A stretch of 64,000 nt of DNA from Marsupella aquatica (lineage: Eukaryota; Plantae; Marchantiophyta), in NCBI GenBank assembly GCA_973895155.1, contig OZ316893.1, forward strand, positions 8,743,839 to 8,807,838, written 5' to 3'. The position numbers were made by a program, and so were the translations under genes. Positions within the stretch are counted from its first letter, which is position 1. The number at the start of each line of letters is the position of its first letter. A model generated the notes under the pieces. That model did not search any database and had not been told where the DNA came from. It saw only the letters and a list, made by a program, of their open reading frames with translations. This document shows positions 3,653 to 38,897 of the stretch, in pieces.

Positions 3653-6012
3653 CCTGAAAGTGGGGACCATTCATGCTTGTAAAATTAAATAAAACTGTGA
3701 AGGGAGCGGGTGGTAGGCACGAGCAAGTGTAACCGAGAGCAAGTGTAACAGAGGCTCCTCATGAGCAGTCAAGATTGCCCCTTCGTTGTGAATCCTAGGA
3801 TGGTACATGCATTTACTCTGCCATAATAGACTGCTTAAAAAATGAATTAATATGCTTTGGAGGGTGACTGAGACCATGGACAACTCTCGGGTAAATCCCA
3901 CCACTACCTCTCTCCCAACAATATTCCAAAGTGAGGTTCACCAAAGCACTTTGCACACAAAATACCACTTTTTGCACATAGCCCCATTTCAATGTGGGGT
4001 TCACCATAGAACACAATCTCGTTGATACTCTGAAACTTTTGTGTTTATTTTCCTACCCCCTACATGGAAACTGCAGTAGGTAGGGTGAGGGCAGCGTCTA
4101 AAAGTGAGCCTGATCCAAGCTATTGTAATAAATGAGTTTTTGGGAGCACCTGAATCCATTTTGGGGTCCAATGGGGTGAGAGCCCCACCAAGTAGCCTCA
4201 AATCTAACAGTATCAGCCGCAGCACATTCTGGGCTGGCTGGCCTTGCTTGATGGGAAGCCCATCCAACTGGCAGCTGGCTAGATCTTGATGGAAGCTTCA
4301 CAAATCCTGGAAGAGTCCGTTCTCCCTCTCTCTTTCTCTATTTTTTGGAACTAGTCTTTATTTTAGCAAAAGTACTCCCTGGGTTTGTTTTGCAAATTTG
4401 AAGGGCCCATGGATCACATTTCCCAAAATTTGAGTTTAATTACAATAACTTGATATATACAATTTAAAAACATAAATTAGTTCGGGATATGCTAGAGTAG
4501 TAGGGAGGTTACACTTCCATTTAAGCGATAGTGAATTTTTGGTTATTTGGGTTGAATATTTCATCATAGGGGTTAAATTTCAGAAGATTGATTTTCATTG
4601 TGTTTACATGAAATAGTTGGGTCTACTCCTTCTCTAGTTGCCTTGCAGGTAACTAAGAATTATTATGAGATTCATAATCTTCCAGTTATATACCCCACAC
4701 TCTCATGGACCACAAAAATGTGATGCATGGGAGCACCATGTTGGACATGGTGCTCCATTCTAGCTTCACATTCTGGTGTTGCATAAATCATTTCAGTTTT
4801 AGTAAAAGCAGAGGAGAAGCTTCCCCAAGAGGTGATTCAAATCTTGAGTGGGCAATCTTCGCCAAGAATTTACCGCCAAATAAAAAGTAAGGGGAAAATC
4901 GCGAACGTTGCGAAGGGGCAGTAAGATAGCGAAAATGGGGCGCTGACTTCCGAGTCCGTCAACGGGAAATGATATGCAAAAAGGCATTATGGAACGCAGT
5001 ATCTGGAGAACGAAACGGAACGGATTCGTTCGGGGAAGGTCTGTTCTCCACAGCGCGATGGCAGCGGAGCAGTTGTCTGTCGTCCATTGGTCTCGTCCGA
5101 GTCACCGACTCTTGTCCTCCGGCGACGGAAAAGAACAAAGCAAATCACAGCTGAGCAGCGAGCATCAGCGAAAGCACTCGAAGCAGCTTCCCCGTTCAAG
5201 CGTCTCGTTGTGATCTAATCCTCTCTGGAGTCTTTGGCGAACTCAAAACGACCGAATCGCCTGTTCAGGTCAGGTGCTGGGCAAATGAACAGCAGCGAGC
5301 TCTACAGTACTACTTCTCGTGTGTTTCCGGCTGCCACTCCCGTGGTTTGTGCTGCCGCCATATCGCCCCGCTTGCTTGCTTTGCTTGCTTGCTTGCTGCT
5401 CTATAGCTGATTTAGAATAGAACGATCGATCCTACTGCGCGTCCTTCCCTTGCACCGCCAAGCTTTGTCGCGCTGCCGTCGATCGAGGATTCGAGGTACA
5501 GTTCCTCCGCTTTGTTCGCCCGGCTTGGCCCGGCGTTGCGAGCGAGAGAGCTTTTCAGGAGAAGTAATTAATAGCTTGTGACATGACACTCTTGGGCGCT
5601 GCTGAGGGGGTGCGTTGACAAGTTGCCTTGTCGAGTGTCTTGCCACGCGAACTGTGTGCCAGCGAGCGTGGGCACCACCGGCGTGAAGGTCTGAGCGCTC
5701 GTCTGTTTGATGCCTGCATGCAAAGCTTAATTGCTTTCTGATCGGGCTGATCGACCCCTCTTTCTAGACAATTGACGGGGCACACTTCTCCAGCTTCTTT
5801 GTTCTGGGAGTCAGAGCGAGAGCCGGGCGACGGCTGCAGCGAGATTCATTGATCGAGTGATTAACGTAGATACGAAGTAGCACGAGTGAACATTCGATTG
5901 GCTGACACAGGCAGGAGTCGAAATACTGGTTGCCACCGAGGAAAGGAAGGGCCCGTCTCTTGTCGTTCTAAAGCGAACCCAACTGACCTAACTGAACTGC
6001 AGCGCGATACAT

Positions 6013-8285
6013 ATGGCGAAGCTTGTGTTGGTACTTCTGGTTTACTTCCTCGCCTGTGCGTTGACGTCCTGCTCTGCTTATCGACCGCTGCCTTCTGAAA
6101 CAGAAACTGCGTTGTCAGCAGGTATCCATCGTTTTCCATGGACGATTAGTATCCCGTCTGTGATCTGTCCACTCATGCATGTTGTGCGGGCGTGTAGTAG
6201 TACCGCGGTTTCTCTCCATCTCACTCTCCTTCTCAGCTTCTCACGTAAGTACTGCTGGCCTGCATGAACTGATGGCTCTGCACTAGCACTTTACTGTTGA
6301 TCCACTAGTAGCTACGTCCCCATGCTTGATTCGTTTTGCAATTTGCGAAGCGAGTTGAATGCCGTGGAACTTGCCTCCGTAGCCGAAGCTGTCAGTTAGT
6401 TAGTGTGTATCCTGAAGGAAGACAGTGACCAGTGCCTTACTGGTCACTGTACTCTACACTGGTCATCACCTCCAGACTCGTCACTATGGTTTGGGAGATC
6501 ATGTAGTTTTTGCAATGTTGGGTGTAATGGACCTTCTTTACTGCAACGGACGATACATGTTAAATTCTGTGGTATATTTAATTTGTATGACGAGAGCGCG
6601 AAAGCCTTCGAATCTGACTTTGGCTCCTGGATGTTATTGTTCAGCTAAGACCGATTCGACCACTGCTGACTCCAAGAGTAGTTTCTCGTCCGCATCAGCT
6701 ACCCCCGCAACGGAGTCTGGTAATGTTGAGCAAGAAGAAGCGCTGACTGAGTCCGAGACAGGAGAAAATTTTACGGTAAGTCATTCCGATTCACTTGTTT
6801 TTCATGTTTAACTTTCGCGAATGCCTCTCTATAACGTTTATGGACGGTATGATCGAAGTAGTCCGAGAGGTGTTTTCGGTATTCTCGTATGTATTTAGTC
6901 TGATTGAAGTTCGTCTGACTAAAGAGTTTGGAAAAGTGTTTGCGTTCCTTCTCGGATCAGCGCAAGGGTTATGGAGCTCTCTCTGTGCTCTTCATAAGCG
7001 CGCTGGGACTTCGACCTGCTGTAATCGTCTTATGAACGAGCATTCGCTCATCTAGTTTTGAGTGCGAGAGCGAACTTCGGTTCGCAAAGAGAAGATCTTG
7101 TGTGTACCGTCATCTCAAGGGATTGAGAACATCCTACGCCAATAGTGACAGTGGACTTCTTCAAAAGAGTAAAGTTGTTCACAGGGCGTTGAACAGCGGT
7201 TCCCGTTCTTGAGGCAGTGCGTGGGAGCGGTCGAGAGTACTCAGTTGAAAGCGTCCCTAGCTATATTTGGCTATCTGAGATGGGATGCCTTCGGCATTTT
7301 CTGAACGAGAAACGTCGATGTTTGCTCACTAGCTGCGTGACGATGAGTTGTTCCATGTGCGTGCAGTTGGATTAGGACCCGCGTACAGCCTTTGGGTCCC
7401 GTTCTGAAGGCGCTTCATCCGATAGCACCCTGAATTAGTGAGGACTGTAAGTCTGAGGCTATTCTTGACCCCTGAGGTTTCTCCATAGAGCCTCAAACTT
7501 CATCTCCAGGAATGGGGCCAATCCATCTCATCCCAACTGCACTTTGAGGTTTGGAAGTGCGACCTCAAGTTGAGCCGCTAGAAGCCAATAACACCCTCGT
7601 ATGGACGTTCGTCCATAGAAACCATAAGAGAAACCTTTAGTCATATACTCAGATCAATGGGAACCGGTTTAGCATGAAGTGACGACTTCAGAGTTATTTT
7701 CCAGCCCTACGGCCGATGTGTATTCTTTCCATTGTGCGGTTCCCTTCGCGGCCTTTTGTTCATTGTGCTCTACATGCCGAGCGTACACAAGACCTGCGCT
7801 ATCGCTGTCCCCCACTCTGTCTGGACTAACGAAACAAGGGCCTATTTAACGTTTACTAGTCGAGGATAAGCACTTGCGGCCGTAAATTGCTGAACCTGCG
7901 TCAGAGTGACCTAACTCAAGTATTTGCAAGGGCAGACCTAACTCAAGTGTTTGCAAGGGCATATATCATGTAGAAACGTTGATTCGAATCCCAAACTGAC
8001 CAAGTGAAGAAGATCGAATGTTTAGAAAATCTGAGAGGAGAAATATTCGAACGAGTCTGCTTCACCTTGTAGTCGAAATTACTTCTATGAAGAGATGCTG
8101 ATCGGGTGGTATATGTTTTTGCGCCGCTGCAGGGTGTTGCACCTCCGTGTATGGAGGAGGATCTTGAGGATTCCAGCGTTGGTGGGGGAGAGCCTTGCCA
8201 TCGCAGGCTAGGAGATGGCACATCGTTTGCCATGCTAGACTACGGAGGCACGGGAGGGTCAAATCCTAACCCCAAGTATCCATGA
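6013..8285 (+). CDS. Secreted tyrosine-sulfated peptide precursor (PSK-like scaffold, PSY-like C-terminal DY peptide), 130 aa, 3 coding exons
   Basis: Exons 6013-6121, 6645-6775 and 8133-8285 are joined by phase-compatible GT-AG introns. Protein: signal peptide MAKLVLVLLVYFLACALTSCSA, then YRPL, an acidic Ser/Thr/Glu-rich linker, and ...PPCMEEDLEDSSVGGGEPCHRRLGDGTSFAMLDYGGTGGSNPNPKYP*. An acceptor AG at 6001-6002, 10 nt before the ATG, implies a 5'UTR intron. Confidence 0.85.
7908..7961. repeat. 27-bp tandem duplication (intronic)
   Basis: GACCTAACTCAAGT(A/G)TTTGCAAGGGCA x2. Confidence 0.85.
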
Positions 8286-8379
8286 CACCGTAAGTGATTG
8301 CATCTATCATGGCGGACGGAGGGAACAGGAAAAGACCCTAACAAATTCGGCTGTGTCGGGAATGTCACGTTGTTTGTTA

Positions 8380-8552
8380 GGTAAGAGCAGCCAACAAATT
8401 TGGCGACTCGGTCGTAGCAATAGCACATCCTTCGCAAAGTAACATCCTTCGCCAGGTAACAGCAGCCAACAATTTTGGCTGGTCAGTCGTTGAAACATCA
8501 CATCCTTCGCAGGGTAACATCCTTCGCTAGGTAACATTCTTCGCTTGGTAAC
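8380..8552. repeat. Short degenerate repeats in the presumed 3'UTR
   Basis: Repeated ~18-bp GGTAACATCCTTCGC-like units and AGCAGCCAACAA x2. Confidence 0.6.
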
Positions 8553-10789
8553 TAGCAAACATGCACATTATTGTGACCCAGAGATCTCTTGAGATATGTT
8601 TGCTATATCAAGCCCCATATAATGTAGTTAGACGGTACCGTGACTCTTTTTGTATTATAGGGGATCTGATCGGGGCATGGATGGACGCGATGGTACGTAT
8701 CCTCCATCCCTCGATGCCTCAAGACTACATGGGCCATGGAAGGCCATTGAAGTAAAAAGTGGTTTGGTCTTATTCTCGAGTTTTTTGTCCGTGCTTCAAA
8801 AGCTCCAGAATAAACTAGGCTTGTAAAGGTACTACTGAAGTCAACGTGTTAAAGTTTTTCCTTTCGTACTCTGGTGAAATAATGAGTACAACAATGTGCT
8901 TTCTCACGTTCATGCAATATAACTTTCGCAATGTGCTTTCTCACGTTCTCGCAATATTCTTTTCTCAAACATGTTCCTGAGCGAGCTTTGAAATCTTGGG
9001 CACTGCGCTGCACAGCACAGAGCAGGACGACAAATCTTGTGAGGATGGTCAACTCGAAAGGAACTTCATCCTGACATGCTCGATTCTCGAAGCTTGATTT
9101 GTCGAAGCTCGTAGCCATAATCGCGTACATCTCAGTCGTTTTTCAACTGTAGCTGCAGCACGAGGGATTTGTGCTCGGTGTTGCCGAGGGACGGTCGGTG
9201 GTACGCGCCGTACTTTCTGACCAGTCCAGTGTACTTTGAACGAGCATCCGATCTCAGATCGTGGATGTCCTGAGAGTGTCACGGAATAAAGTCTATCCAC
9301 ACATGAAAACCTCTTTGGAGAGAACTGTCACATAAGACGGCGGAGCTCATCAGGAGCTTCCGAACAAATCCTTATCGAGGAGGGAGATTAATCACTGTGC
9401 AGCGTTGGTGATTTATGCGACATAATCGCCGTGAACTGTTACAAAGGGTTGAAGTCTTGAACGACTGTGAGAAGTTAGTGCAATCACTACGTCAAGTCCT
9501 TGTTTTCCTAGGCAGTCCAGATCGATAACCCAGAAAGATTTCTTGATTGAAGCCGTTTCAAAGGTGGATCGATGAACGGATAGTTCAAGGTACTTGCATT
9601 TCCACGAAGAGAGTGCGATCGCACGAGATAACTGCAAGTGGACACTCGAAGTAAATCATCGCTTGATCCTCAAACTAGTGATTAAAGATGCCAAAGGAAT
9701 GCGCAAAGGATGTCGTTCAATTATTATGACTTAACTTTCGTCCCATTTCATCGTTTACGAACGTGATCAAAGTGTCCACACCAGAAAACTTCAACTACCG
9801 TAAATCGATTTTACCAGAAACCAGTAAGTGTTGATACCAAGGGCCGCTTGACCTTATTGCGCTACTGTATCTGAACTCCAAAAAGTGTTCTCGCTGCATG
9901 GTGAGTTCCGCTCCCACGCAGGCAAAGATCGAAGTTAGCCAACCAGCCGTGTATACAACGTTGAACTAACTGTACAGATAGTGCCATAGTAAGTGTCTCA
10001 AAATTCATTTGGCTTACGATGCCGGGTAATCTTTCTCACAGTTGCTCTATTTTCTTGTCTCACATGAACGTAATACATCACGACGTCAAGGCCCGTAGCA
10101 AGCTCTGGGTCTGCCGAGCCCCATCGATTGGCCCGATGGCGCTCCATGCTCGATGCAACATGACATGATAGGAAAGTTGAGCAAAGTTCGCCCCTTGCCT
10201 GAGCAACGAGAATCATTCGAAGATCAATACAGTCCAGCATCGAGCCGTCGAGGTGATAGTCTTGATCAGAACTGCGTCGGACTTAACATGATCTGGGTAA
10301 ATTATGTGACAGAGAGCAGAAAGCAAGCAAACTGTCCACGAAAAATGAATCCAAAGCCCAAGAAGAACCGTTGCAGTGATAGATTTGGGTCCACCTCAGT
10401 TGGGCCACTGTGGGAGGTGGTTCACCACCGACTTCCAAGTACATGCGATCCGGTGGGAGATCGGTTTACTCCTTCAGTCCATCCCTCCATTCTTCCTCTC
10501 CTCGTTGTTCGCGGCACCGGCTTGAGCTTCAGAGCACTAGCAGCCCCAGGCTTGCTCTCCTGTGGTCTGTTTAGCTCGCAGACCAATGTCACCCACACAA
10601 TTTAATCAGGCCTGAGTATTCTTCTTCTTCTTCAATTACCAATGTCACCGACACAATTTAATCAGGCCTAAGTAATCTGATTGTTCAATTATAATGCTAA
10701 GATTGTCTGCTAAAGATTAAAAATAGCTCGCAGACGATTGTCACGAATTTCATCAGCCGTGTGTATTCTACTTCGATTGATGTAACACT

Positions 10790-15622: not shown

Positions 15623-17117
15623 ATTGTAGTTGAGTGATGGAACTCAGTAACTGTGCATGAGCAAGCAGGCAGGCAGACAATTAAGAGCACGGAGACAAGT
15701 AGGCAGACACGCAAGTAGGCAAGAATTCCAATGAGACCATTTCCAGAAACGCATTACTGTTACACGGAAAATAACTCCACTTCTTCAATGCCATTGCATT
15801 GATTGACGTAAGTGTTAAGAAACACAGTCTATGTGAAAGACTCCAAATAGAAAATAGAACACGCGAGTGATCAAGTCCCTTTGTTGAGTGTTATTCCAAC
15901 GGGAAAGCCGATAATAGATACATCTTAATTGCGAGCCCCAACAGGGAGCTCAACTTCGTCACCTTGGCTTAATTTTAGCCCAAGTATTCCAAGCAGATAT
16001 TTGGAATCCTAATAAAATGCTTCAGGTGGTTTCACTAAGAAACAGTTACCGGGAACTCGTTTTCCTATTGGCCTTGTAGTTTGATTGGCATAACCAACAT
16101 ACCAGTTGGGCCCTCTGCCCGTTCGTTTGATCATGATAGAATTAAGATCACCCCAAACCTTCAGATTTGGGCCTGGGAGAATCAAATTTGCCAAGACATC
16201 TGAAAAATGAGCATTGCATCTGTTGACCTTGGCATCGAAAATGGACAAATTGTAGACGGTCATGTGAATCTACCAAAACTGTTAGCCCCAGCTTGCTACC
16301 ACACAGAACCTCGCTCCTCCAAGCCAGTCTCCAAACTGGGCCAGGACTTCCCCAACCCTACCCAAGTCCTCAACCAATCTCAAGCCCCAAACTCCTAATC
16401 CTTCATCTTTATCCAAGCCACCCCGTCATCTTCTTTTCCTCGAATCAGCTGTCGCAATTATATGAGGTATCAAGAGTAGACAATTAGATTGCTCTTGAAG
16501 GACGTCGCAACATGAGGGGCATATTCCATCAAAACGATAACAATGACTTACAAGCTTCTCCGAGAATGCCACCTGTGGTCAGAGAACTCAATCTCCCGTT
16601 ACAACTGGGCCAAGTAATGAACCTGTACTGGGTCGCTTTCATTGCATTTCAGACCCATCATGGCTGCAGTCGACATAAGAGCGCTATGATCATGACCGCT
16701 AAAGAGAAAGTGACCCCTCCATCCTTTTGAAGGTCCTCGAAATGACATCTCTTGCCGGATCAGAGCCCTCTCTTGTCAAAGCTAACAGCAATAACTTCTA
16801 GGGACAAGCCCAGTCTCTACTACATCTGTGGGTTTCAAGTTTGAAAATCACTTTATGACCATTGTGCAAACTTCACTGAAAAAAAATGATGGGTAAAACA
16901 AGTGATGAATGACCTGAATCGAAGTAATATACATGCCCCTGATTGACAAATCACTATCTAGGTGACAGCAAGAAAATCACCATGTGAGCCTAAATCAGGC
17001 TTGGAGATTCCAAACAACCAAATATGGCGTGCCTTCTTGCCTGTTCAATCAGTTTTCCATAGAATTGGCGCCGCCCCGCCCCGGCCCTCGCCCCCCCCCC
17101 CCCCCTTCTCAGAATAG

Positions 17118-20100
17118 CTAACCAATGTATCCGAGACGGTGCAGAATGAGGGCAAGGATGAGCATCACAAGAGCAAGAATCAACCCAGGTCTTCCTAGCA
17201 ACCAGTTTTTGGCCTGCCGTGCTTGCTGAGCCACTCTCTGAGCACGGTCGGCCCATTTCATCTGTGATAAAGTCCACAAACAGCCGAAGTTCAGATATAC
17301 TGATGAATTGAAGTTCTTTCAAAGTGCTGCAAAGACTAATCGAACTGCTGATTGAGACTATGACCACATCAAATCGGTCGAGTAAGCTTAAATTTCCTAA
17401 GAATCCATCCCCAATCACTTCCCAATCACCAGGTGGGCTTTAAGTACAAAAACTGACAACCATGAACTGGTTCTATTACAAATGACAAGTAAGATGATCT
17501 CCATTTTCAAAGTAATTTGGCAGTAGGCATCGACTATCGAGTTAGGACATTACGATTCGATCAAGATCATCAGGACTTAGATTGGCCATCGCTTGCTGTG
17601 CTTTTGCTGCCTCTTCAGGTGATAATTTCATGCCAAGTTGCTCACTCATACTTGCCATTGCCTCGGGAGTCATGTTCTTCATCATTGATGCCATCACCTG
17701 TTTAGCAAAGACCGGGAAGGAAGATTGTGATACACAATTCAAAAACAGAGTAACTATCGCTAAAGAATCAAGTTACACGTAACACCCATAGAGATGCAGA
17801 CAACTGGCTAGCATGACACTCAACAAACCGTGAGGGTTCTAGGGGGTCACTCCAAGCTGTATTTTATGCTAAAAAGGGGAAATATGCGAATTGACTTGCA
17901 CACTGTCAACATTGCATGCTTGATGTCATGCTCGTAGTTATTTGGATACAAGAAATATGTCCACCGGTTCCTCACAGCCTTGACAAAGTGGTGATTGGAA
18001 TCTATTGTGAACAACAAACCCATAATCATCTCCCTAAACATGTGAATTCAGAGATGTCTCTAGTGACTAAAAAACAAAGTCAAGTAAAAACATCACCTGC
18101 TTCATGGCTGGATCCTTCATTTGCTTCCGCACTTGCTCTTGCATATCTGGACTAAAATCAGCCATGCTAGGCATACCTTCCCCAGAATTTAGGCCGACAC
18201 GTTGACTCAAGTTTTGAGTGCTTGATGGTGTCTCCAATGTTGATCTAGGAACTGATCCATTTGAGTTATTTGTCTCGTTTGATCGTCCTGATTGTCCTCC
18301 AGAGGATGGTTGCGTTTGAGGAAATGCTCCACCTGGAGCCTGGAACTGACTCGCCATGCCCATCATCTTTTCTAAGTCCTCTGGCCCCATGTTTTTAACC
18401 ATGTCTGCTGCCAGTTTAGCCATGTCAGGAGTCATTCCGCCTCCGCTCATGGCAGCCAGGTGTTCAGGGTTCATTGTTGACATCATTGTATGCATACCCC
18501 TGCATCATATCAATGGCATATTCCCCAGATCAGGCACAGTTCAAAGCTGCACAGAACTCAAGTGGGTAACACAAATTGCTCTCTAGTCTGTTCAGAGTAT
18601 ACTTCCAGAGCTAGTGGATAACTCACAGTTCTGGGCAACAAGGAGGTGACAATTTAATCAGCTCACCCTCATACCCATAAATACCTGATTATCTCCGGAT
18701 TTTGAGTAAGTGAACTTAAGCTCTCTCCCATTGGGTTGCCATTTCTCAATGCTGACCATGCACCACTGGTAGATGATTGGTCCCCATTTTCAGTCACCAC
18801 ACTGCCGTTTGAGGATGAGTCCACAGCATTAACCCGTGTTGTTGATGAAAATCTTTCTGCTTCTTCATCAGTTATCTCCTCGATGATTGGACCTGGATGT
18901 GAACGGTCAGTAATAGGTGACTACTAGTCTGGGGAACAAGGTTCTGTATCACTGGTATCATAAGCTTAAGTGTCATGACATCTCATAAATGCGAGGAGCC
19001 ACCATTATCAGCTACACTGTTAGAGTCGGTCATCTCAACAAGATAAGCTTGGCAAACAATCCAGAAATTGAATGAAAAAGTAGGATGCAGGAGCTCAACC
19101 ATTACTGATTAATTCTTCTTGGTCTCCCTGTTGTTCCAGCTCTTCCCTCGCTTGTCTGTAATCAACAAATCAGGTGCACAGAAACCCTTTAATCATGAAG
19201 TAATCAAAAGGATTTGACGTCGGGGCCGGCTCCAGGCCACAAGACACCAAAATACCTTTGCAATTTGAGAATAACAAGAACGAGAATGCATGATGTGCCC
19301 CAAATCCTTCATCTGTGACCAATGACTCATTCCGCACTCATACATCTAAGTGTATATGTAATACCAATCGCTGTTTCTTCCTGAGTTCACCAATGGCTCC
19401 CAACAAACTCATCTTTCTCGTGACCTCGCTATTTCAGAATTAGTTGTTTAATGATCCCAGGACAAAACAGTACCTCAATGTTTCTGCGATAGTCACATCC
19501 TCAGGAGAAAGCTCAGCAGCCTTCTCCAAATCTGAGACAGCCAACTGCATTGCATACAGTGAGGAATGATTTTAGGTCATGGAGAAAGCACCGCAAACGT
19601 ATTGAGAAGGACTAGCGAATCCCATCGTGAGTCCCCGGCTTACAAGGAGAGGAGTTTTCTATTCAACTCCTTCAAAGAAAGACGCATCATCCCATAAAGC
19701 TGTAGAGTACCAAGGGTGCCAGTCCAAACTTTCTTTAATATCAAGTGTCCAAACGGAAAATATAGCAAGAAATACGATAATAATCTTTGATAATCTCGGT
19801 TCCAGGAATCCTTACCGCGAATTTTTTCAGTTCTTTGTAAGCTTGTCCTCGGCGATAAAATGCTTTGACGTTCTGCATATTTCCTTTCAGCACCTGGTCA
19901 ACATGCAACTCATTGAAATTTTAGAGAAAATGGTGCTCGAAGTTACATCACAGCCACGAGGGGAACAAAACAAGCTGGGCTTCCCAGCAGTAGTTGCAAG
20001 TGGACACAAGCAAAAAGAGACGAGCCCGGAGCATTGCACTGTATGAATAAAATCTGAGGCGAACAGGATTGTTACAGAACTATCTGGAGATACCTCAGTT

Positions 20101-22372
20101 CCTTCAGTAATCACATGGTCGTACTGCTTGGTCTTCAGGTAACATGACATGAGATTGAGAGAGCAGGTCAGCTGCAGACTCTTTGCTTCTGGCGTTATGT
20201 TCTCCAAAAGATTGGTCTTTGCCTGAGATAGAAATGGAGCACACTTTATCAAAACGAAATCCTCAAAAATTAAAGACGCAGTAATCACAAACTACTCAAG
20301 ATACCCTCTTCGCATCAGATACCATGTGATCTACCCCATTTTCAAGATGTTATTGACCCGTGCCTGATCCCACTCTCTTAAGGCCCCATTACAAGTCAAT
20401 TGACTAAACACGTCAATCTACAAACGAATCTGAACTTCAAGAATGCAACATTCACTTCAATCCTTCAGAAAGTAATCGGAAGGTCTGCCAATCGTTCCCA
20501 GATACGTAAGTATAAGCTCCTTGCGTCTCAAAAATATATGGAAATCAGGCATCAATTAACTCCGATGATATTCAGGACGTCTCGCTAAAACTCACCCGAA
20601 CATACTTCTCAGCTGCTTCCGAATACTTGCCGATTCCATGAAGTTGATTACCCTGTCAGACGTTAAACAAAGTGTCATACAGAAACAATCTTTGCAGAGA
20701 AGAGTTTACTGAGCACCCGTATGAAAGAATATGGGACCATAAGGTTCGCCCCGTAAATTTCAGTACATTGGTAACTTGAGGAAGACGGTGCAGATAAAAC
20801 CGCTCTAGAAGATGACCGAACCAAAACTTACTTGAGTTTTCAAATTAAGAGCTCCTTGATATGAATAAGAGCGTTGAGCCTCAGTTTGAGCTCTCATCGA
20901 CGCGATCTCCTCAGGAGATGCATTTGCCATACGGGAGCTCATATCAGCAATTTGTTCGGGAGGAATGTTCTTCATTTGTTCAGCTGCCATGCGGAGATCC
21001 TCTGGTCGTATATTTTTCATTCCTTCTGATGCCATGCGCAGCAAGTCTGGGTTACTCATCATCTGAAAAATCCAACCATTCAAGCTCATCAGCATGGTGC
21101 ACAGACAACGCCAGACTGTACGGCGGTTTGTATGAATTGCACGTGTACACGTCACAACATGGGATTCCAAAATAAATTCCGTAGAATCTAGAATGGACAG
21201 GAACCTTTGGCTTTTTGGAGAACCTTCATGACTAACATTTTAGAAGATTAAATTTCGAACTTCGACGATTCATTTTGACGTGGAATCGTGCCATCTTTTA
21301 AACAAAGATCATGTCATCTCTTAAAGGAACATGCGTGAACACCCGGAGACAAAAAGTTTGCGGGTTAGCACTTTCGTATTCCTAGCTTTCTTCTTGGGTT
21401 CGAACTGCAGCCTAAATGTACCATCTAGGATCAAGAATATGTCTGCTTCAATCCGCAAGGTGCGTAGGTCCATTGCAGCAACTGAACAGACATTAATTAC
21501 AACTCTTCTCTTCATCACGCGAAAGGACACAGGACCATATGCTTGTAACGCTGAAATTTATATGGCCTTAAAATAAAAGAATAAGCAGCCTCAACATACC
21601 GACGATTCCATGTGCACCTCAGCAATCATGGCAATTACCCTTATTCACCGAAACGATGGAAAAGATGGGAGTCTCGATCCCCTGACGACCTAAGGAATTA
21701 GGTCAACAAGCTGAAGCAAAGGTTATCGGTGATCTCACGTTCCCCTTAGGGTAACTTATCAAATATTGATACAATCCTTACAATCGATCCTTACGGACGA
21801 CACGATAGAGAAGGGCCGCACTCCAGTCGATTTGAAAACATCAGATATATTCCTCATCGTCCTAGACATGGCCCTTCTATTTCACAGTAAATTACCATCC
21901 ACGGCAGCTCATGTCCTTGCCGACTCAGCTTTGAAGCTTAATCTTCGGTCCAAGTACACTACACATCCAATTCTTAAGACATTGCTGCCAGTTCCACGAA
22001 AACTTCCTGCTTGCAACCCCTACAAAGCCATGCTCTGCGTTGATTGTTGTCTCTCTTTTCTAAAGGATTTGAACTGCTCCAGACGGTGTCAGCGCAAAAA
22101 TTCTGAGCCAATTTGTCAGAAGACTCCCGGGGGGTAGGGGCAAGGAAGGCGAGGGGATGGAGGGATTTCTGAAACTAATGCAACGAATGACATGAGGAGC
22201 GTCAGAAACTGATCAGAACAGGCTAAGAGAATGACATTATTTACATGCACTTTATGTAGTGAGGGAAAAGTCACACCTGCTGCTGCATTTTCTGCAGATC
22301 TTCGGGTCGCATCCGGCTGATTTGCTCTTGAGCTAACCTCATCGTCTCTGGATCCATCATGCCCCCGAACAT
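17118..22372 (-). CDS. OEP61: Outer envelope protein 61 / TPR7 (TPR chaperone receptor, tail-anchored), 11 exons
   Basis: Starts [21 protein letters not shown]...[26 protein letters not shown] exons include [39 protein letters not shown] and [18 protein letters not shown]1-like QMKDPAMKQ. The last exon (17118-17261), MKWADRAQ...[30 protein letters not shown], carries the C-terminal TM anchor. All introns are GT-AG. Confidence 0.95.
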
Positions 22373-23194
22373 TGTGTCGCCCTCGTCTGTCTCTTTCTTC
22401 CTCTAGCAATCTCTCTCGTTCCCGCCTGGAATCAAGTCAAGGACTTCGCTTCTTCAACGAACTGAAAAATCAACCCTCTCTGCTCGGCCCAGCGGGAACG
22501 TAAAGGCCAGGGGCACCTTCTTCTCCTTCTCCCTGGCGATCACCTCCAAAATTCCATGCTACACACCACAACAGGGCACGCAAATCCGAATTCCCCAACC
22601 CCGCGGTCTCGTCTTCACACCACTCCACTTCACCGACAAGCCGACAAACAGATAAATCAAAGCACTGAAACCAAAGCACAAGAAACAAATTGGCCAACGA
22701 AATTGCGTTTCCACAGGTTGACCAAGTCCACTCCGAGAGCTTGACAAAACGCTCTGTCTCAGTCCCGTCCTCTAGGAGCTGCTGCCACTGTTGCCGCCGC
22801 TGCTGAAGCTGCTTCCGGGATCGAAATGGCTGCCAACATCAAAATTCCCAGCGGACTAGTATCGACTCAAACAGCAGGAGCAAGAGAGGGACTCAAACGC
22901 CCGTCACTAGGAATTTACACCCGTTTTCTGTCACCACCTCCACGAAAGCCGAAGGCGGGCGAGGAATGAGGCGATCTCTCTACAGATCTACAGTGAGTTC
23001 GCTGCTCATCAAAATTGAGCGCACTTTCTACGCATCCAAATTCCAGCCGACTGTTTGAGCGAACTAGGCAACAGCGTCAGTGGAGCAGAATGACGAGGGT
23101 TTTACATCAATTCATCCCCTAAAAAGGAGAAGAAGACGAACTCCACCACGAGAGACGGAACGATGACATCTACGGGACAGTCTGGTCTGTTATA

Positions 23195-23888
23195 CGGCCC
23201 TACCGTCGGACCTAGTTAACTAACCATAGTCATTAGTCTGACCAAGGTTAGAGAGTTTGTGCCGGTGTCCAAGGTTAGAGAGTTTGTACTGGTGACCAAG
23301 GTTAGAGAGCTCGTACCGGTCACGACATTCAAAGTGCGTTATTGGCAAGACCTCGTAAAATAACCAGAGTCATTAGTCTGACCACGTACCGGTCACGATA
23401 TTCACAGGTGTGTTTATTGGCAAGACCTCGTAAACTAACCAGAGTCATATTAGTCTGACCAAGGTTTGAGGGTTTGTACCGGTCATGATATTCACAGTGC
23501 GTTATTGGCAAGACCTTGTAAACTAACCAGAGTCATTAGTCTGTCCAGGGTTAGATTATTTGCACCGGTCACAATAAGTTGTACGGCCCTACCGTCAGAC
23601 CTCATAAACCAACCAGAGTCATTAGTCTGACCAAGGTTAGAGCATTGGCACCAGTCAACCATAAGTTGTACGGCCCTACTGTCTGTCAGACCTCGTAAAC
23701 TAACCAGAGTCATTAGTCTGGCCAAGGTTTGAGCATAGGCACCAGTCAACCATAAGTCCCTACTGTCAGACCTTGTAAACTAGCCAGAGTCATTAGTCTG
23801 ACCAAGGTTAGATAATTTGCACAGGTCACAATAAGTTGTACTGCCCTACTGACTGTCAGACCTCATAAACTAACCAGAGTGATTAGTA
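23195..23888. repeat. Degenerate tandem (satellite-like) array, unit ~65-90 bp, about 8 copies
   Basis: Recurring core GACCTCGTAAACTAACCAGAGTCATTAGTCTGACCAAGGTTAG with two alternative spacer types. Confidence 0.9.
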
Positions 23889-24034
23889 TATATATCTAAT
23901 TGCAATTGAAGAGGAATATAGAACGCCAGCCCCCTTTGCATGGTATTGGCCAAGGGGTCAATAATGCTATACCCCTTCTTTGTCATGAAATGTTGCCAAG
24001 CAGATGGTACACTAAATGTAAGAAAACAAGAATA

Positions 24035-24225
24035 TGTTGATCAAGTAAATAACCTCTACTCAAAGTCAACATGACCATGTGTAACATCCAAAGAACTTAC
24101 GGGGAGTCAACATAGGAGATATGTGGTTCATCTCTTTAGAGGCTACGTCCACGGGACAAGAGAACTTTATTGAATTTTAAACTCATCAACCATACTGAGT
24201 TCCCACAGACTATGCTTCCTATCCC
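24035..24225 (-). mobile_element. Decayed LTR fragment of the same family as 36183-36525
   Basis: GAGATATGTGGTTCATC..GAGGCTACGTCCACGGGA.CAAGAGAACTTTA is the reverse complement of the motif block at 36398-36457. Confidence 0.6.
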
Positions 24226-24479
24226 TCAATAAATTGGCTCAAAACAAGAATACATCCCCAACAGGATATGGTTGAAGAATCACAATAAACAAGATCAAAT
24301 TAGAGAAGCAAATGTGAATGAACAAGAGTTTCATTGCTTTGGAAGAAAGCCCCAAAAGGTAATAATTATGGTGGAACCTGAAAATAAACCAAATACAACT
24401 ATTAATGAGTTTCACTTTTGTACTAGGAAAGAGAGACCAAACAATTGACATATTTTGGATCCTGTAGTCTAAACCTGAG

Positions 24480-24712
24480 TGGTTGAAGACCACCTCTGTT
24501 GTTAACTCACCCTAAAATCAAGTTATATTGTTAACTCACCCTGAATTCAAGTGAAATATTCCATATGTGAGTGGTTATAGGTGAGTTACAATGTTAGCTA
24601 ACCCTGTGTTTAGGGTGAAAATATTCTCAACACGAGTGGTTATTAAAGGTGAGTTCTAATGTTAACACACCCTAAATTGAAGTGAAAATAATGGTCAACT
24701 CACCACCACTTT
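24480..24712. repeat. Cluster of direct and inverted AACTCACC/GGTGAGTT repeats
   Basis: AACTCACC occurs near 24504, 24533 and 24697, and GGTGAGTT near 24580 and 24648. Possibly a MITE relic. Confidence 0.4.
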
Positions 24713-24867
24713 ACAGAATACTCGATTGTCTTATCGATTGGTTATGATGACATGCAAGAAGCACATGACTGTGTGTCCTGCCACCTTGGTCATTGGGGGA
24801 CATATGTTTCTACCATTGCTCCATTCGTGAAACTTTAACGAGTCAATTCCTCGAAAGTGCATGTGAA

Positions 24868-26181
24868 ATGGAAGGGGAACCCCACGGAGACGAGGTTCGC
24901 AGAGATGGAAAATCGCCCAGCTGGCCAGGTTTGTGAAAATCTCCATCCTTAAAGAAGTAACCCAGAATTGTCTGCAACTTGGTCTGCATATTCTCGAGGG
25001 TTTGAGCACGTTGGGATCTCTAATAATTTCCTTGTTGTGAAGTTCTGAATCCTGCTTCCCAACTGGCGCTGTGATCATGCCCTGCATGTCTAGCTTGGGG
25101 GGATCTGGTGCAAGCGAGGACTTCGTTTGGCTGGTCCTGTCTGTAGTCAACATGTTGGAGTCTTGCAGCTGTATTACATATGCTGAAGAAGGGCCACAGA
25201 ATCGGAGGGGACGAGATTTTTAACAACAGATTCGGTTTTTACATTGTTGCAGGTTTTGCCATTGTTGTCATGGGTGTCTCGGGTTCTGGAAAATCGTGAG
25301 TACTTTTCATCTTGCCAAAGTAGTTGTTGACGCCCGAGTTTACTTTGTTGAGCGGCTTTCTATGTTGGACTTGTAGCATTTGCGTTGCTTTGTGGAGATT
25401 ATATTCAATTCTTGCAGAATCGAACCTCAAGGGCTGTCATAAGGGGATTGGCACACATTTCCACTAACTTCGAAGATGGTGGGTGTGCTGCACAGGACCG
25501 TGGGGGAGCTGCTCTCCAAGACAGTGCCTTGCCCGTTCATTGATGCAGATGACTTTCACACAGAAGAGAACAAAGGTGGGCTCCTACCCAACCAGAAAAT
25601 TGTTTCTTCGCGTTGAACTCATGGACAAGTCTTGGACATTATCAATATGGTAATCATCATCACGACACCCACCCTTCATGTTTTTCGCTTTGCCAGAGAA
25701 AATGAGAAACGGTATTGCTCTGACGGAAGAGGATCGGCTACCTTGGCTAGAAGACCTGCGCAATGAGCTGGGCAAGTACACCGGCAAAGGAGAGTCAGTA
25801 GTGCTAGCTTGCTCAGCTCTCCGACCTCAATACAGAGACATTCTTCTCACTGCTGATTATCCCAATCACGTTCAAGATAGGCAGCAAACTGTCATAAAGG
25901 AAATTCCAGAAGGGAATGTGCACTCAGAGATCAGTAGGTCCACCTGGCGCACAGGGAAGGTTGTGTTTGCATATCTTAAGGGTTCTGCAGAGCTTTTTGC
26001 TTCCAGGCTTGCGGCCCGACACAAGGAAGGCACACATTTCATGCCCCCGTGTTTGTTGCAATCTCAGTTGGACATTCTAGAGATCACAAAAGGGGATCAT
26101 GATATTATAACTTTGGATGCAAGCTTGAGCCCCAAGGAAATTGTAGACTCCCTAAGTAAGAAATTGCTTGAGTTTAACTGA
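24868..26181 (+). CDS. GNTK: Gluconokinase (thermoresistant glucokinase family), 4 exons
   Basis: Exons 24868-24928, 25253-25295, 25496-25575 and 25697-26181. Motifs: Walker A GVSGSGKST, FIDADDFH, KMRNGIALTEEDRLPWL, VVLACSALRPQYRDIL and HFMPPCLLQSQLDILE. The first exon is the least certain. Confidence 0.93.
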
Positions 26182-27858
26182 ATAAATTCAAAGTCCATGT
26201 ATTGTTACTTGCAAAGGTGCATTACACTGATCGGATTTATAGAAATTAAGAAAATCAGCTGCCCCCGTTACTGGGGGAAATTCTTGTAAGAGTCTTGTAT
26301 AAAGGTGTCGGTACAGCCGAGATGCTAAGTTTTAGAAGTGATGTTAATGCTGTCAATCTGTGCACGCATTCTTGCTTAAGCAATTTTCTACAGTGATACA
26401 CAGCAAGCCTGAACAGGAATGGCCGTTGTTTTAGTCTCAAGGGACGATTCGTTCTCGACGTAGTGATGAGGAGGTGTTGCTTACCTAACTGCTTTCAGAA
26501 AATTGATGCACTCATCAGGGACAAAGATGAGCTTTCAATCAATACGTCGGGTCTCTAACCCTCGGGATCTAATCAGGTTTATTGATCGCCAGAAAGAAGG
26601 TTCTCAGTTCGTTGTCTGGATAGCTCAATGAACCACACGGTTCTAACAGCATTTTATTGTCAATGAGTACATTCTATGGATCAAAGGTAAAGAGGCCGAT
26701 CGCGGTGTTTGTGATGAGATCTAAGAACATGGGCTCGCTCGAACTAATATGCCTTTTGTCAAGAACAGCAAAATAGGAATTACGGCAATGGATCATCAAA
26801 AAGTAACTGAATTGGGTGCCTTTGTCGAAAGTTGTAAACCCCACCAAGGAGATCGTGTCACAAATTAAGGGAAGAAACACCTCTCGTACACTTTCGAGTG
26901 CTTTCGCATATTGGTGGGGATTTCCAACGAGCCGATTTGGAGAAAACTATAAGGGAAAAGAGCATGTGATTCATGTAGTTTGTAAACACTAAGAGTATAC
27001 GCCTTGACAGTCGAATCGAGGTCGTGTTCAGTTAGTTCAAATCCGTGGTTGGCTGGATTTGGACTATCTGAACTTTGTGTAAGGCGGTTTTACAGTTTTT
27101 AGATGATTTAACGTGATGTCAGACTTTGATTAAATTTATACCATCAATTTCTGTTGTCTTGTCGTGGATCTGTGCACGAATGAACTAATGAATGGCATTC
27201 CAATGTAATGTGCATACTTCGCGAGTAGTCACGTTTTACTTTCTTCCTCCGACCCTCAATTCTGTAACTTGGTTCATCTTACACGTAAGTTTTTTGTAAC
27301 AACTGTGGCAATTAGCACCCAGTCCTTGGTCTCAGTGTTGAGAAGAAACTCGGGATGGACCCTTCTTCAAAGTAAAGACCTGTCTCGAACTCTACTTCCC
27401 TAAACTCTACAAATGTCACCAGACAGCTGGAGGAGATGCTAAAGCACAGATAGGTTGCCTGCATACCAAGTAATTTACCTGCTCCGGCATAGACCACACT
27501 GCCGGATAGATGACGCTGCATTGCTCAAGCTCAGTAAACGCTAACATTATGATCAAAATATCCCTCCCGGACACCGGAACAGCAATCAGTACGACGCGGG
27601 CTCAATACCCCTTTCTTTATTTCTGTTGATTATTAACATCTACAAAAGTAGTGACTTCGCTCAATTGTCTAAATGTACAATGGCCTGCCAAGCATCATGA
27701 ATAGTGGAGGACATCCTGCTGTCTACGTCCGACCTATAATGGTGGGGATTCCTTCTTAATCAGGAAGAATCAACAGTCCTTCGCAACTGAAAACCGATTT
27801 CAATGGAATCCCGTGAAGTGGGCTTTTAAGATGAACCCATAAAACGACTACGCGCTGG

Positions 27859-30800
27859 TCAATGGAGCTCTCCCACTGGTGCCTCACTGAGCCATAAAAA
27901 GTGGATAAAGTCATACAGCTTCCCACTGACGCTAACCTGCACATCGACACATAAAATGTCATTCTTGGACATACCACACACCACAGTGATGATCATTCTC
28001 GCTAAATTTGCTGAGCATGTTGTGAAAGAGAATATTTCTACGAGTCTTATGATCTCAGTCACTAGTTTTCTGGTCTGTTGATTAAGAGTGAATATCAGAG
28101 AAAGCATAAATTGCTCTCGACCAAAACCATGTTCTTTAGCAAGATATCTTAGTCTTCGGCAGGAGTGAAGTACACAGCTTCGTTAAGACTGCTCTCCATT
28201 TCAGGTCGAGAGTATTCGACACTCAGTACCATACCTTGTATGGGGTGGGATTCATTGGACGCAGATGATCACTACGCTGAGCGGCCAGTTGTTGTCGGCA
28301 CTGTTCCCTTTGCTCTTCAAGTGTCGGTAATAATTCCCTAGTCTTGCCTGCAATTACATACAATTCACCAATAGGAATGTCAGAAAATGTCTTGCACGTT
28401 AATGTAATCTAACGAACACCCAAACCGCAAAACCGACAAACGATGATAATAAGAACCTGGATTCTTAGAATAAAACAGCCAAACGATGTATATAGCTTCA
28501 AACTCTAAAGTTAAGCCAGCCAGACAAACACACTCATTACCAGATGAGCCAGGTAAGTAGCATTTATAAAGAGGCTCAACCCGTTGAGGAATGACATACG
28601 CCCTTTTGGATTCATTGAAGGGATGTCGACAGAGTATGCGCCCTCCAGCCTGCTTCCATGAACAATTTAGTCAGACCTAACGTAGGAATCTGGCAACTTG
28701 CAACCCTCTCAGCCGGATGCGACACTTTCGCAAAGGTGTGCTGAATTGAAGGTGGATGAAAATTACCACAGTAAAAGTGGAGCCATATATATTCAGGAGA
28801 AGAAAAAAAGGAGAATGACAGGTTAAAAAAACATGTAAAGAAAATCCTGCATCTTGAAGACGATCACCTTAGGTGGGGCTTCATTCTCTCCAACCATCAA
28901 GTCCAACAAAGCATATCCCTCTTTACCATAGAGCCGATAAGCTTGCTTTTTGCATGGGATTGTAACCTGTGAGAAAAAGAAATAACCTGATGATAACGAA
29001 CGAATAGAAAGCTTGTTGACAGCTGCTTGGATAATGGAAATACTTTGCGCAAGATGTCCAGGGACAGACCTTTACTATATCTTCTGAGAGCTTGATTCGG
29101 GGCTGACCATTAATCTCTACAAGTTTGTAGACACAACCCAATGCTGGCTGTTCGTAGCATGTGATTAGATTAGTTCCAATCCCGAAAGCATCTATCTCAT
29201 GCCCCTGATTGACGAAAACCATTAGTGCCATGCAGTGCGACCGGTCAGCCATATACAAGCCTGAAGAGGTGAATTGAAATCAACAGTACACGACAATCTC
29301 CCAATAATCCATAAAATTCTGTTGGCCATTTTCCCACGAAGACAATTCTCAACATCCAGTTATTAAAGGTCTGAGGTTTTGTATGCAAATGGAAGGATAC
29401 TTCTGAACGCAGGTTATATGAAAGCCCTCTCTTGAAGGGAGAAGGTGATCCTCATGCTGATGGCGACAAAAAATGGCTGACAAGCAGAACTTCCTGTGCA
29501 ATATATATATATATCTGACACGGAAGAATTCTCCGTGACAGACGGACCCAAATGAGTAGAACAAGTGCCCTTGGTCACCTGCTTATTTAGTGCCTCCAGT
29601 GTGCCATGACTTATGTCGTTACTTGCAGTGATGACCAATCTTCCGAAGCCCTCTACTCTAAATTCTCGTTCTGCTAGTTTGAAGAAGTTGCGTGTCTCTA
29701 CAGAAAAGTATGACAGATCACCCGAATCCAAACGGACTCCAAGAGCTTTGTACCTGAAATATACACAACCCCGTCATAAAAGCAACACACCACCACGAGA
29801 ACATTCCAAATAAAGGAGGGTCAGAACTTGTACAGTAAAGAAGCTTTGTTCCAAACTAATATTTTTTCTACCCACAGCAATGGATATAAATTCAGACATA
29901 GTCAACCACTTTGGATCCAGCATTGAACTGTTTTCCAAAGAGGAGACACTATGAACGCTACCGAGATACATGATAAAAAGAGAGAATTAATACATCAATT
30001 TACCTCAACTCAGAATGGTCGAAACAACAACGATAAAAAAAACGTACTCCACGACGGTAAGCGGACGACTACATACCCTAAATCATGAAGGGCAAGGGCA
30101 ACAGCGCAAAAGTTGGGAACTCCACTTCTCAACACCTGTGAAATAACCACCCGAGATTTTGTTGTGAGATGTGCCAGAAAGCCCACTATAAGGATTTCCA
30201 GTAGAAGGGAGCACGGCTGTAATACTCCCCAATCTGTTGCCACAAAAATGTGTTCCTGGCCGAATCCTAACATAAACGCCTTGCAATTCTATAAAGATTA
30301 AAAATTCAATCAAAATCGGAGGCCGTCAACATACGTACTTTACGGATACTATCCATGCCAGAACATATCTTCAGAAACAGAAGTCTTTTATCTTTTCTAT
30401 CCTGTTTAGTATTTTTGTTTTTCGATGATTAGAAGGACCCTCACAGACACCACACTCAACAGCATCAGGTGCATTTTGAGGTGAAGCAATTGGCCTGCCA
30501 CAGCTTGAACTTAAGACCAATGGCTCATGTACCAAATGCTCAACTCCGACACACAGCGGACATGGGAAAGCCAGTTCTAAGAGATAGGACCGTCTGACAG
30601 TGCTGTCTCATCTATATTTTGTGGCAAAATATAAGGACCGACATTATGCAATAGATCTAAAACATACTGCTGCCAAATAATAGCTTCGAGAGCCTTGACT
30701 CTTGACATACTATCGTTCGTTATGCCTCAGACAGTTGATAGTCTCACCACACCAGCAATACACGAGACTTACATCATACGTGTCGACAAGTGCTTGGAAT

Positions 30801-33800: not shown

Positions 33801-33816
33801 TGAGAGAGCGCTCCAT
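27859..33816 (-). CDS. NAPRT: Nicotinate phosphoribosyltransferase (NAD salvage), about 15 exons
   Basis: Exon motifs [109 protein letters not shown] and [14 protein letters not shown]. Confidence 0.96.
32517..32543. repeat. (CAA)n microsatellite in a NAPRT intron
   Basis: About 8 CAA units. Confidence 0.9.
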
Positions 33817-34577
33817 GTTCGCAACGCTTCTGTCTGACCTCCCTGACGTTCCCCTCCGTTCCTCCCGGAACCGTAGCGCAAAGCTAATGTGAAAGTGCTG
33901 CAGATTCAATGTTCAAAAGTGGATCCCTCCACCTCCCCTCCCTCCCTCCTTTAAAGACAAACAAGACCACGCCAGCCAGAGACGGAAATTGCCACGACAA
34001 AGTGCCGGTCCTGAAATTGATGACCTCTGCTTGGTAGCGTTCCCACATTTGAGGTCGCAACTACCTCGTGCATGCGGACGAAAGCAGAACTAAAAATTAC
34101 AGTCCGGTCCTCATATTCAACCAGTCTCCTCCCTTTCCAGAGCTGCCCCTACAGTACCTGCGGACATGTTGCTTTGTGCACTGCTTTGTCACCCATCAGC
34201 AATTCAGCATGCTCCGGCGGCAGGAGAATCATCATCTATCTGCCTTGCTTCTCTCGATCGGTCGATCAATCCTTCGACTGTTTCTTCGTGTATCGAACGA
34301 AGCACAGCTTGCTTGCTTGCTTGCTCGCAGGCGGGGTGTCCCACCAGCGAGGCCACAAATCAGCACCATGTACTACTACAGCAGTGAAGTGGAAATCTTT
34401 CGAAGGAAACAAAAATCAGCGGCATCGTCATGATTTGCTGCGAAACTGGGAAACTGCAGCAGCAGCAGCAGCAGAAATGTCCAACGCAATCGAATTTCGC
34501 AGATTGAGGTACAATCTTGCGTCAGCCTCTGTGACGGTCGAGGGGAGAGGGCTTTACTAGTATGGGCATTTACTGTT

Positions 34578-38671: not shown

Positions 38672-38897
38672 GAGACAGAGGAGAGACGCCCCCGTCTGAA
38701 CTCTCGAACACTCCCAACGATCTAGTAGTTCAGTCCTATGTGCCATTCCGGCCTGCACCCTCTGCTTGCTCGGCTCTGCTCCGCTCCGCTCCCATCCAAT
38801 CGACCAAGCTCCGAATTTGCGGTGCAGAAAATCGATTACAAGCGAGGAATAGCAATGTGAAGTTCGGTGTGACCGATAAGGTTTGTGGATTGATTTG

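What the first reader, a model, noticed from the sequence alone, without database searches (positions are those of the whole stretch)
6013..8285. Hidden secreted sulfopeptide precursor combining a phytosulfokine-type scaffold with a PSY-like mature peptide
Seen in sequence: splicing three short exons gives a 130-aa preproprotein that is absent from the ORF track. It has a signal peptide followed by RPL, an acidic linker, a Cys pair (C-M-E-E...E-P-C), a dibasic RR-L site, and AML-DY followed by GGTGGSNPNPKYP*. Established knowledge: PSK precursors have RP after the signal peptide, C..EE.C..RR.L..AH.DY and then YIYTQ. PSY peptides are DY-x5-N-x2-H-x-P (AtPSY1 DYGDPSANPKHDP). DY is the TPST sulfation motif. 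Inference: this precursor has the PSK processing architecture, but its 15-aa terminal peptide is not YIYTQ and is PSY-like with the Asn shifted by one and no His. It could be a link between the PSK and PSY families or a lineage-specific sulfopeptide hormone with its own LRR receptor. It is the best candidate for an undescribed signalling system in this window.
Basis: partly seen in the sequence, partly recalled or inferred. Interest (0 to 1): 0.85.

Follow-up and report, generated by a model that had tools for sequence, protein, structure and literature searches.

The report
Unassigned liverwort PSY-like sulfopeptide precursor
A predicted three-exon gene, with close relatives in the leafy liverwort Calypogeia fissa, codes for a likely secreted protein that is probably cut to release a 15-residue, likely tyrosine-sulfated signalling peptide; the peptide resembles the PSY growth hormones but fails their motif, and its likeness to phytosulfokine is only loose.

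Summary
The gene is real. The exons 6013-6121, 6645-6775 and 8133-8285 join through GT-AG sites into a 130-aa open frame. Three full-length homologues cover all three exons at 82-89 of 130 identities: two in Calypogeia fissa, one on an unnamed 1053-base contig. No RNA run was listed. All four proteins keep a signal-peptide-like start, C-x15-C-H-R, SFAMLDY and a 15-residue tail ending PNPK-(x)-P. The PSK reading weakens: RR is present in 1 of 4, Cys spacing is 15 against 7-8 in five PSK precursors, AH-x-DY and YIYTQ are missing, and Pfam PSK hits 0 of 4. The PSY reading needs re-aligning: the invariant Asn is the one in PNPK (spacer 3-4 residues longer than PSY, His lost), not the Asn 'shifted by one'. 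PSY, PSYL, RGF and CIF motifs all fail. Verdict: an undescribed DY-type peptide precursor, so far seen only in a leafy-liverwort-like group, most likely a divergent PSY. Sulfation, processing and receptor are untested. A PSK-PSY link is not excluded but has little support.

The parts
6013..6121 (+). Coding exon 1: start codon, predicted signal peptide (residues 1-22) and start of pro-region
   Evidence: hydropathy; 26 of 36 identical to P0002; 17 of first 22 residues invariant in three proteins. Cleavage after Ala22 is inferred from the -3/-1 rule; SignalP was not available
6122..6644 (+). Intron 1, GT-AG, 523 nt, phase 1
   Evidence: homologues run without a gap across the junction
6645..6775 (+). 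Coding exon 2: Ser/Thr-rich then acidic linker
   Evidence: 20 of 44 identical to P0002; 3 of 3 listed substitutions synonymous
6776..8132 (+). Intron 2, GT-AG, 1357 nt, phase 0
   Evidence: junction lies in a variable part of the alignment, so homology fixes it less tightly
8133..8285 (+). Coding exon 3: Cys pair, pre-peptide segment, DY peptide, stop
   Evidence: 35 of 50 identical to P0002; fewer changes than flanks in a second haplotype
8148..8204 (+). C-x15-C-H-R segment with invariant EDLED; possible disulfide loop (untested)
   Evidence: both Cys invariant by chance has p about 0.22 at the mean conservation rate
8223..8243 (+). Invariant SFAMLDY: predicted sulfation site (DY) and predicted cleavage site before Asp
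   Evidence: longest invariant run, 9 residues, p 0.045 by shuffling
8238..8282 (+). Predicted mature 15-residue peptide, DY-x7-PNPK-x-P, ending at the stop
   Evidence: 15 residues in 4 of 4 proteins, DY-to-PNPK spacer 7, 8, 7, 7

Best explanation
The locus is a conserved, predicted three-exon gene whose product is likely secreted, likely sulfated on the Tyr of its terminal DY motif and likely cut before the Asp to release a 15-residue peptide that probably acts as a divergent PSY-type growth signal. Shown: the open spliced frame, the homologues, the conserved blocks and signs of constraint on exon 3. Inferred from known DY-peptide biology: signal peptide removed in the ER; TPST sulfates Tyr117 in the Golgi, helped by the upstream acidic stretch; an Asp-specific subtilase of the SBT3.8/SBT1.8 kind cuts at the L-D bond; no C-terminal trimming is needed because the peptide ends at the stop; the Pro residues of PNPK-x-P may be hydroxylated. 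Most weakly inferred: the receptor is a subfamily XI LRR kinase, most likely the PSYR clade, and the Cys pair forms a pro-region loop that aids processing. About 0.8 for 'DY sulfopeptide precursor', about 0.5 for 'PSY-derived'.
For: Homologues over the whole length. Exon 3 is more conserved than the linker, 29 of 50 against 22 of 58 invariant, p 0.03; the longest invariant run covers the DY. Tail is 15 residues in 4 of 4 and ends at the C-terminus. A second haplotype in run X3 has 4 substitutions in 153 exon bases against 18 in 216 flanking bases (p 0.025), 0 against 5 indels, none in the last 19 codons. 6 of 8 listed exonic changes are synonymous against 25% expected (p 0.004; only 40 of 98 rows were shown). 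It meets the loose PSY screen of Tost et al. (60-200 aa, DY motif in second half). PNPK equals the core of AtPSY5, and a spruce PSY has both C-H-R upstream of DY and NPNPKP after its core. No liverwort row stands among the 15 PSY rows of Furumizu 2021, though TPST is reported in Marchantia and PSY-PSYR signalling works in moss. The model is a signal helix plus disorder, as expected of a prepropeptide (pLDDT 49).
Against: The PSY motif DY-x4-[AP]-N-x-x-H-x-P fails in 4 of 4: spacer 7-8 instead of 4 and no His after DY, while all 14 tabulated PSY sequences keep spacer and His (by eye). None of those 14 has an acid-filled Cys pair. Only one acidic residue lies within 5 of the Tyr. Only three independent sequences at 63-68% identity, so short invariant motifs are weak evidence (p 0.24 for four runs of 4 or more). 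No homologue outside this group. No RNA, peptide or receptor evidence.
Confidence: 0.5

Rival explanations
1. It is a sulfopeptide precursor of a separate, lineage-specific class, or a short CIF/TWS1-like ligand, read by a receptor other than PSYR (GSO clade or an orphan subfamily XI kinase).
For: Fails PSY, PSYL, RGF, CIF and PSK motifs. Hornwort 'CIF-like 1' has DY-x8-PDPK-PP, the same spacing as P0002, and F-T-M before DY (by eye). No Pfam family and no Atlas cluster at 0.9 or more.
Against: The hornwort peptide runs on for 14 or so more residues and is Pro-rich where this one is Gly-rich; CIFs are about 20 residues. The PNPK block matches PSY sequences letter for letter.
Confidence: 0.25
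2. It shares ancestry with PSK precursors: the Cys pair, acidic stretch and A-x-x-D-Y are an inherited processing module that carries a PSY-like tail here and YIYTQ in seed plants.
For: Cys pair with acidic filling, a basic residue after the second Cys, and Ala three residues before DY are kept in 4 of 4; none of 14 PSY precursors has such a pair. C. fissa has A-A-R-P after the signal peptide, as oil palm PSK does. True PSK is reported absent from non-vascular plants, so a precursor form could hide there.
Against: Both spacings differ from values fixed in 5 of 5 PSKs (15 vs 7-8; 13 vs 10); RR in 1 of 4; no His; Pfam PSK 0 of 4 at E up to 10 (with HMMER filters); Atlas named-cluster search of the C-terminal part gave no usable hit; Cys invariance has chance p 0.22.
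Confidence: 0.12
3. It is a small secreted Ser/Thr-rich wall or apoplast protein that works whole, and the DY is not a hormone site.
For: Linker is rich in Ser, Thr, Ala and Glu and is itself fairly conserved (17 of 44 in exon 2). Atlas leads are unnamed small plant proteins and an organ-specific-protein cluster at 0.81-0.88, below the reliable range.
Against: Conservation peaks at SFAMLDYGG and the terminal PNPK; the tail length is fixed at 15 despite offsetting indels; this is the usual pattern of peptide precursors.
Confidence: 0.13

Closest known systems
PSY family (AtPSY1-8, PpPSY1; receptors PSYR1-3)
   Same: Signal peptide, size, DY start, [AP]-N-P-K block (identical to AtPSY5 core), upstream R-x-L/H-R in some members
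   Different: Spacer 7-8 not 4, no His, Gly-rich, ends at the stop, acid-filled Cys pair upstream
PSK precursors (Pfam PF06404)
   Same: Signal peptide, Cys pair around acidic residues, basic residue after it, A-x-x-D-Y near the C-terminus
   Different: No YIYTQ-type pentapeptide, Cys gap 15 vs 7-8, Cys-to-Asp 13 vs 10, RR not conserved, no His, no Pfam hit
Moss PSYL1/PSYL2 (Lyapina et al.)
   Same: Bryophyte-restricted DY peptide with shifted PSY residues; precursor about 110-118 aa
   Different: PSYL keeps Asn-His; this family has no His after DY. The PSYL alignments are images or closed supplements and were not seen
Hornwort 'CIF-like 1' and CIF/TWS1
   Same: DY-x8-P-[ND]-P-K spacing; F-x-M before DY
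   Different: About twice as long a tail, Pro-rich, no Cys pair
Liverwort RGF
   Same: DY start, Pro at 10 in 3 of 4, at the C-terminus
   Different: 13 residues ending in Asn; C. fissa has its own separate RGF gene

Membership tests
PSK | Mature pentapeptide YIYTQ (or close variant) after Asp | tested here: not met
   tail has a single Tyr in 3 of 4 and no pentapeptide
PSK | C-x7/8-C, then 10 residues with RR and AH to DY | tested here: not met
   15 and 13 in 4 of 4, RR 1 of 4, no His against 5 PSK rows
PSK | Match to Pfam PF06404 | tested here: not met
   0 of 4 members at E up to 10; weak matches are filtered by HMMER
PSK | Signal peptide and Asp-Tyr near the C-terminus | tested here: met
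   (hydropathy, not SignalP)
PSY | 60-200 aa secreted precursor, motif starts with DY in the second half | tested here: met
   criteria
PSY | DY-x4-[AP]-N-x-x-H-x-P | tested here: not met
   0 of 4; a relaxed DY-x4..8-[AP]-N-x-K matches 4 of 4
PSY | Tyr sulfation by TPST and binding to PSYR | not testable with these tools
   needs peptidomics and binding assays
PSYL (moss) | DY...N-H...P with His | tested here: not met
   no His after DY in 4 of 4; motif, where wildcard signs are partly lost
RGF/GLV/CLEL | 13 residues: D1, Y2, P10, N13 | tested here: not met
   definition; 15 residues ending in Pro
CIF/TWS1 | About 20-residue Pro-rich peptide with PF near its end | tested here: not met
   (window protein); lengths
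CIF/TWS1 | Relation to hornwort CIF-like 1 | tested here: inconclusive
   by-eye likeness only; no scored comparison was made

The most novel reading that the evidence does not exclude
A fifth class of plant sulfopeptide hormone, kept in leafy liverworts, whose Cys-bracketed acidic pro-module is homologous to that of PSK while its 15-residue ligand is PSY-related: a living relic of a common PSK/PSY ancestor in a lineage thought to lack PSK, with its own receptor.
Probability: 0.12. Interest if true: 0.8.

Novelty: new variant of a known kind. Interest (0 to 1): 0.5.

Why it matters
Liverworts have TPST, but in what I read their only well-supported sulfopeptide is RGF; the PSY table of Furumizu 2021 has no liverwort row and its 'MpPSK' is a 257-aa protein without the Asp. 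This family gives a concrete, synthesizable candidate ligand. It tests how far PSYR tolerates a longer spacer and loss of the His, and whether bryophytes hold sulfopeptide classes beyond PSK, PSY, RGF and CIF. If the Cys module proved homologous to PSK, it would bear on the open question of where PSK came from.

Tried and rejected
No whole genome was held, so paralogues, TPST and receptors in this organism could not be searched. No RNA holder listed; the four runs laid cover the introns and show no splice joints, so they behave as DNA. Exon 3 alone against longer proteins found 0 of 19 candidates and missed the known homologues, so that search is uninformative. The profile search added nothing (2 of 3612 candidates). 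Metagenome scan: 0 of 109 pattern matches confirmed. Pfam gave only a sub-threshold TMEM52 match on the linker (E 0.0045), rejected. Atlas: no hit at 0.9 or more; queries with P0001 and P0002 did not complete. AlphaFold model too poor (pTM 0.17) to judge a disulfide; no fold search run. No second copy in the window by tblastn. Earlier scan findings: none in three look-ups. Paper search for MpPSY/MpPSK names returned unrelated papers in the 20 of 390 listed. Rejected: conserved dibasic site; 'Asn shifted by one'; liverwort RGF. A scored alignment against real PSK or PSY precursors was left out, so PSK homology rests on Pfam and on spacing counted by eye.

Full report
Observation. The three exons join through canonical GT-AG sites into a 393-nt frame of 130 aa. 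Joining exon 1 to exon 3 directly breaks the frame; among 21 phase-compatible middle exons, 6645-6775 ties for the best acceptor. The motif pattern alone is weak evidence: DY near a stop is at chance level (35 vs 32.6), and the fuller pattern appears in 14 of 100 shuffles.

Homologues. A full HMMER scan of 1.84 billion representatives with exon 3 gave one hit, P0002 (E 2e-12), a 125-aa protein on an unnamed 1053-base Logan contig. It matches all three exons in order. That contig is shorter than intron 2 here, so it is likely a spliced transcript; I could not see it. P0002 retrieved P0003 from Calypogeia fissa (E 3e-32), and the cluster holds a second C. fissa copy, P0004, on another large contig. 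These are predicted, unnamed proteins. Identity to the window protein is 82, 88 and 89 of 130. The window is therefore inferred to come from a leafy liverwort or close relative. A profile search and a metagenome scan found nothing further; both need short exact words, so the true range is unknown.

Constraint. The four runs laid behave as DNA, and no RNA holder was listed. Runs X3 and X4 carry a second haplotype. In X3, exon 3 has 4 substitutions in 153 bases against 18 in 216 flanking bases (p 0.025) and 0 against 5 indels; none falls in the last 19 codons (contigs are unphased). Of 8 exonic changes among the 40 of 98 rows shown, 6 are synonymous (p 0.004). Across window, P0002 and P0003, exon 3 is 29 of 50 invariant against 22 of 58 in the linker (p 0.03), with blocks EDLED, PCHR, SFAMLDYGG and PNPK; only the 9-residue run is beyond shuffling (p 0.045), and both Cys being invariant has chance 0.22.

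The PSK claim. The five seed-plant PSK precursors in the supplement of PMC8462819 have Cys gaps of 7-8, exactly 10 residues from the second Cys to Asp, and A-H-x-D-Y-I-Y-T-Q (counted by eye). This family has 15, 13 and A-M-L-D-Y in 4 of 4; RR occurs only in the window protein, and R-x-x-L or R-x-L after the Cys in 2 of 4. RP after the signal peptide is in 2 of the 5 PSKs and in AtCIF4. Pfam PSK is not hit. What remains in favour is real but loose: an acid-filled Cys pair followed by a basic residue and A-x-x-D-Y, which none of 14 tabulated PSY precursors has.

The PSY claim. The PSY motif of PMC7913133 fails in 4 of 4. The Asn at position 9 is Lys in P0002; the invariant block is PNPK, which equals the AtPSY5 core before its His and also follows the core of a spruce PSY that has C-H-R upstream of DY. 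The better alignment is thus a PSY with 3-4 extra spacer residues and no His. The tail is 15 residues in all four, through offsetting indels in P0002. Moss PSYL keeps His. The liverwort RGF is a different gene in C. fissa. Hornwort CIF-like 1 shares the DY-x8-P-[ND]-P-K spacing but is longer. No family's defining motif is met, so I do not file it as a member of any.

Mechanism. Shown: gene model in frame, homologues, constraint, a signal helix plus disorder. Inferred from DY-peptide biology: TPST needs Asp before Tyr and uses nearby and distant acidic residues; Asp-specific subtilases cut before DY in RGF6 and TWS1; the peptide ends at the stop. The receptor is a guess: PSYR exists and works in moss, and I could not search for it in this organism.

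Novelty. Nine paper searches and motif searches in three supplements (the last held only 2,408 characters) found no description of this family. The library lacks most subscription papers; Furumizu and Aalen 2023, Furumizu and Shinohara 2024 and the journal version of Lyapina et al. were not read, and the PSYL alignments (images, closed bioRxiv supplements, including one liverwort orthologue) were not seen and could bear on the claim. PMC8462819 says in text that PSY was found in Marchantia, but its PSY table has no liverwort among 15 rows. Two 2026 papers report PSK absent from non-vascular plants or first seen in gymnosperms.

What I saw of each paper. PMC8462819: passages, one section, supplement parts 7, 12, 13 and searches. 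PMC13618415: abstract, introduction, passages. PMC12637578: passages. bioRxiv 10.1101/2024.05.13.593875: passages and section 3.5. PMC7913133, PMC8708909, PMC13082318, PMC13091385, PMC10796568, PMC6698702: passages. PMC8329595: passages and supplement search. PMC13074997: abstract, section 2.1, supplement search.

Verdict. A real, conserved, apparently undescribed DY-peptide precursor: new variant of a known kind, most likely a divergent PSY (0.5), possibly a separate class (0.25), less likely a PSK relative (0.12) or a non-hormone secreted protein (0.13). Interest 0.5.

Noticed in passing
window 5496-6002: Possible 5' UTR intron: GT donor at 5496 and a branch-point-like stretch with CAG acceptor ending at 6002, ten bases before the start codon; would imply a non-coding first exon. 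No RNA check.
   Followed up: partly
window 48470-51900: LINE-type retrotransposon frames; reverse transcriptase domain RVT_1, E 7e-11, with a stop at about 51088 splitting the frame.
   Followed up: no
window 38880-41900: Multi-exon WD40 gene; looks like the U3 snoRNP 55K protein (name recalled, untested).
   Followed up: no
window 17000-34000: Housekeeping-like exons: a TPR-like Met/Pro-rich gene (17-22 kb, minus), a gluconokinase-like frame (25.7 kb) and a nicotinate phosphoribosyltransferase-like gene (27-34 kb, minus); names recalled from the translations, no Pfam hit at 0.001 for the pieces tried. No receptor kinase frame was evident in the ORF list.
   Followed up: no
window 5400-9000, runs X3 and X4: Two divergent haplotypes of the locus (about 8% different in non-coding DNA), and C. 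fissa has two 94%-identical copies on separate large contigs; would fit allopolyploidy. X4 changes the last base of exon 2 (6775) without touching the GT.
   Followed up: partly
window 7905-7960 and 8425-8550: Short direct repeats: a pair of about 28 bases in intron 2 and several copies of an 11-base unit after the stop (read).
   Followed up: no
PMC8462819 supplement, Mp3g14960 and Pp3c7_6940: The published bryophyte 'PSK' candidates are 257-aa and about 185-aa proteins with no Asp before the YIYT motif and no evident signal peptide; the Marchantia one looks like an alpha/beta hydrolase (by eye). They are doubtful PSK precursors.
   Followed up: partly
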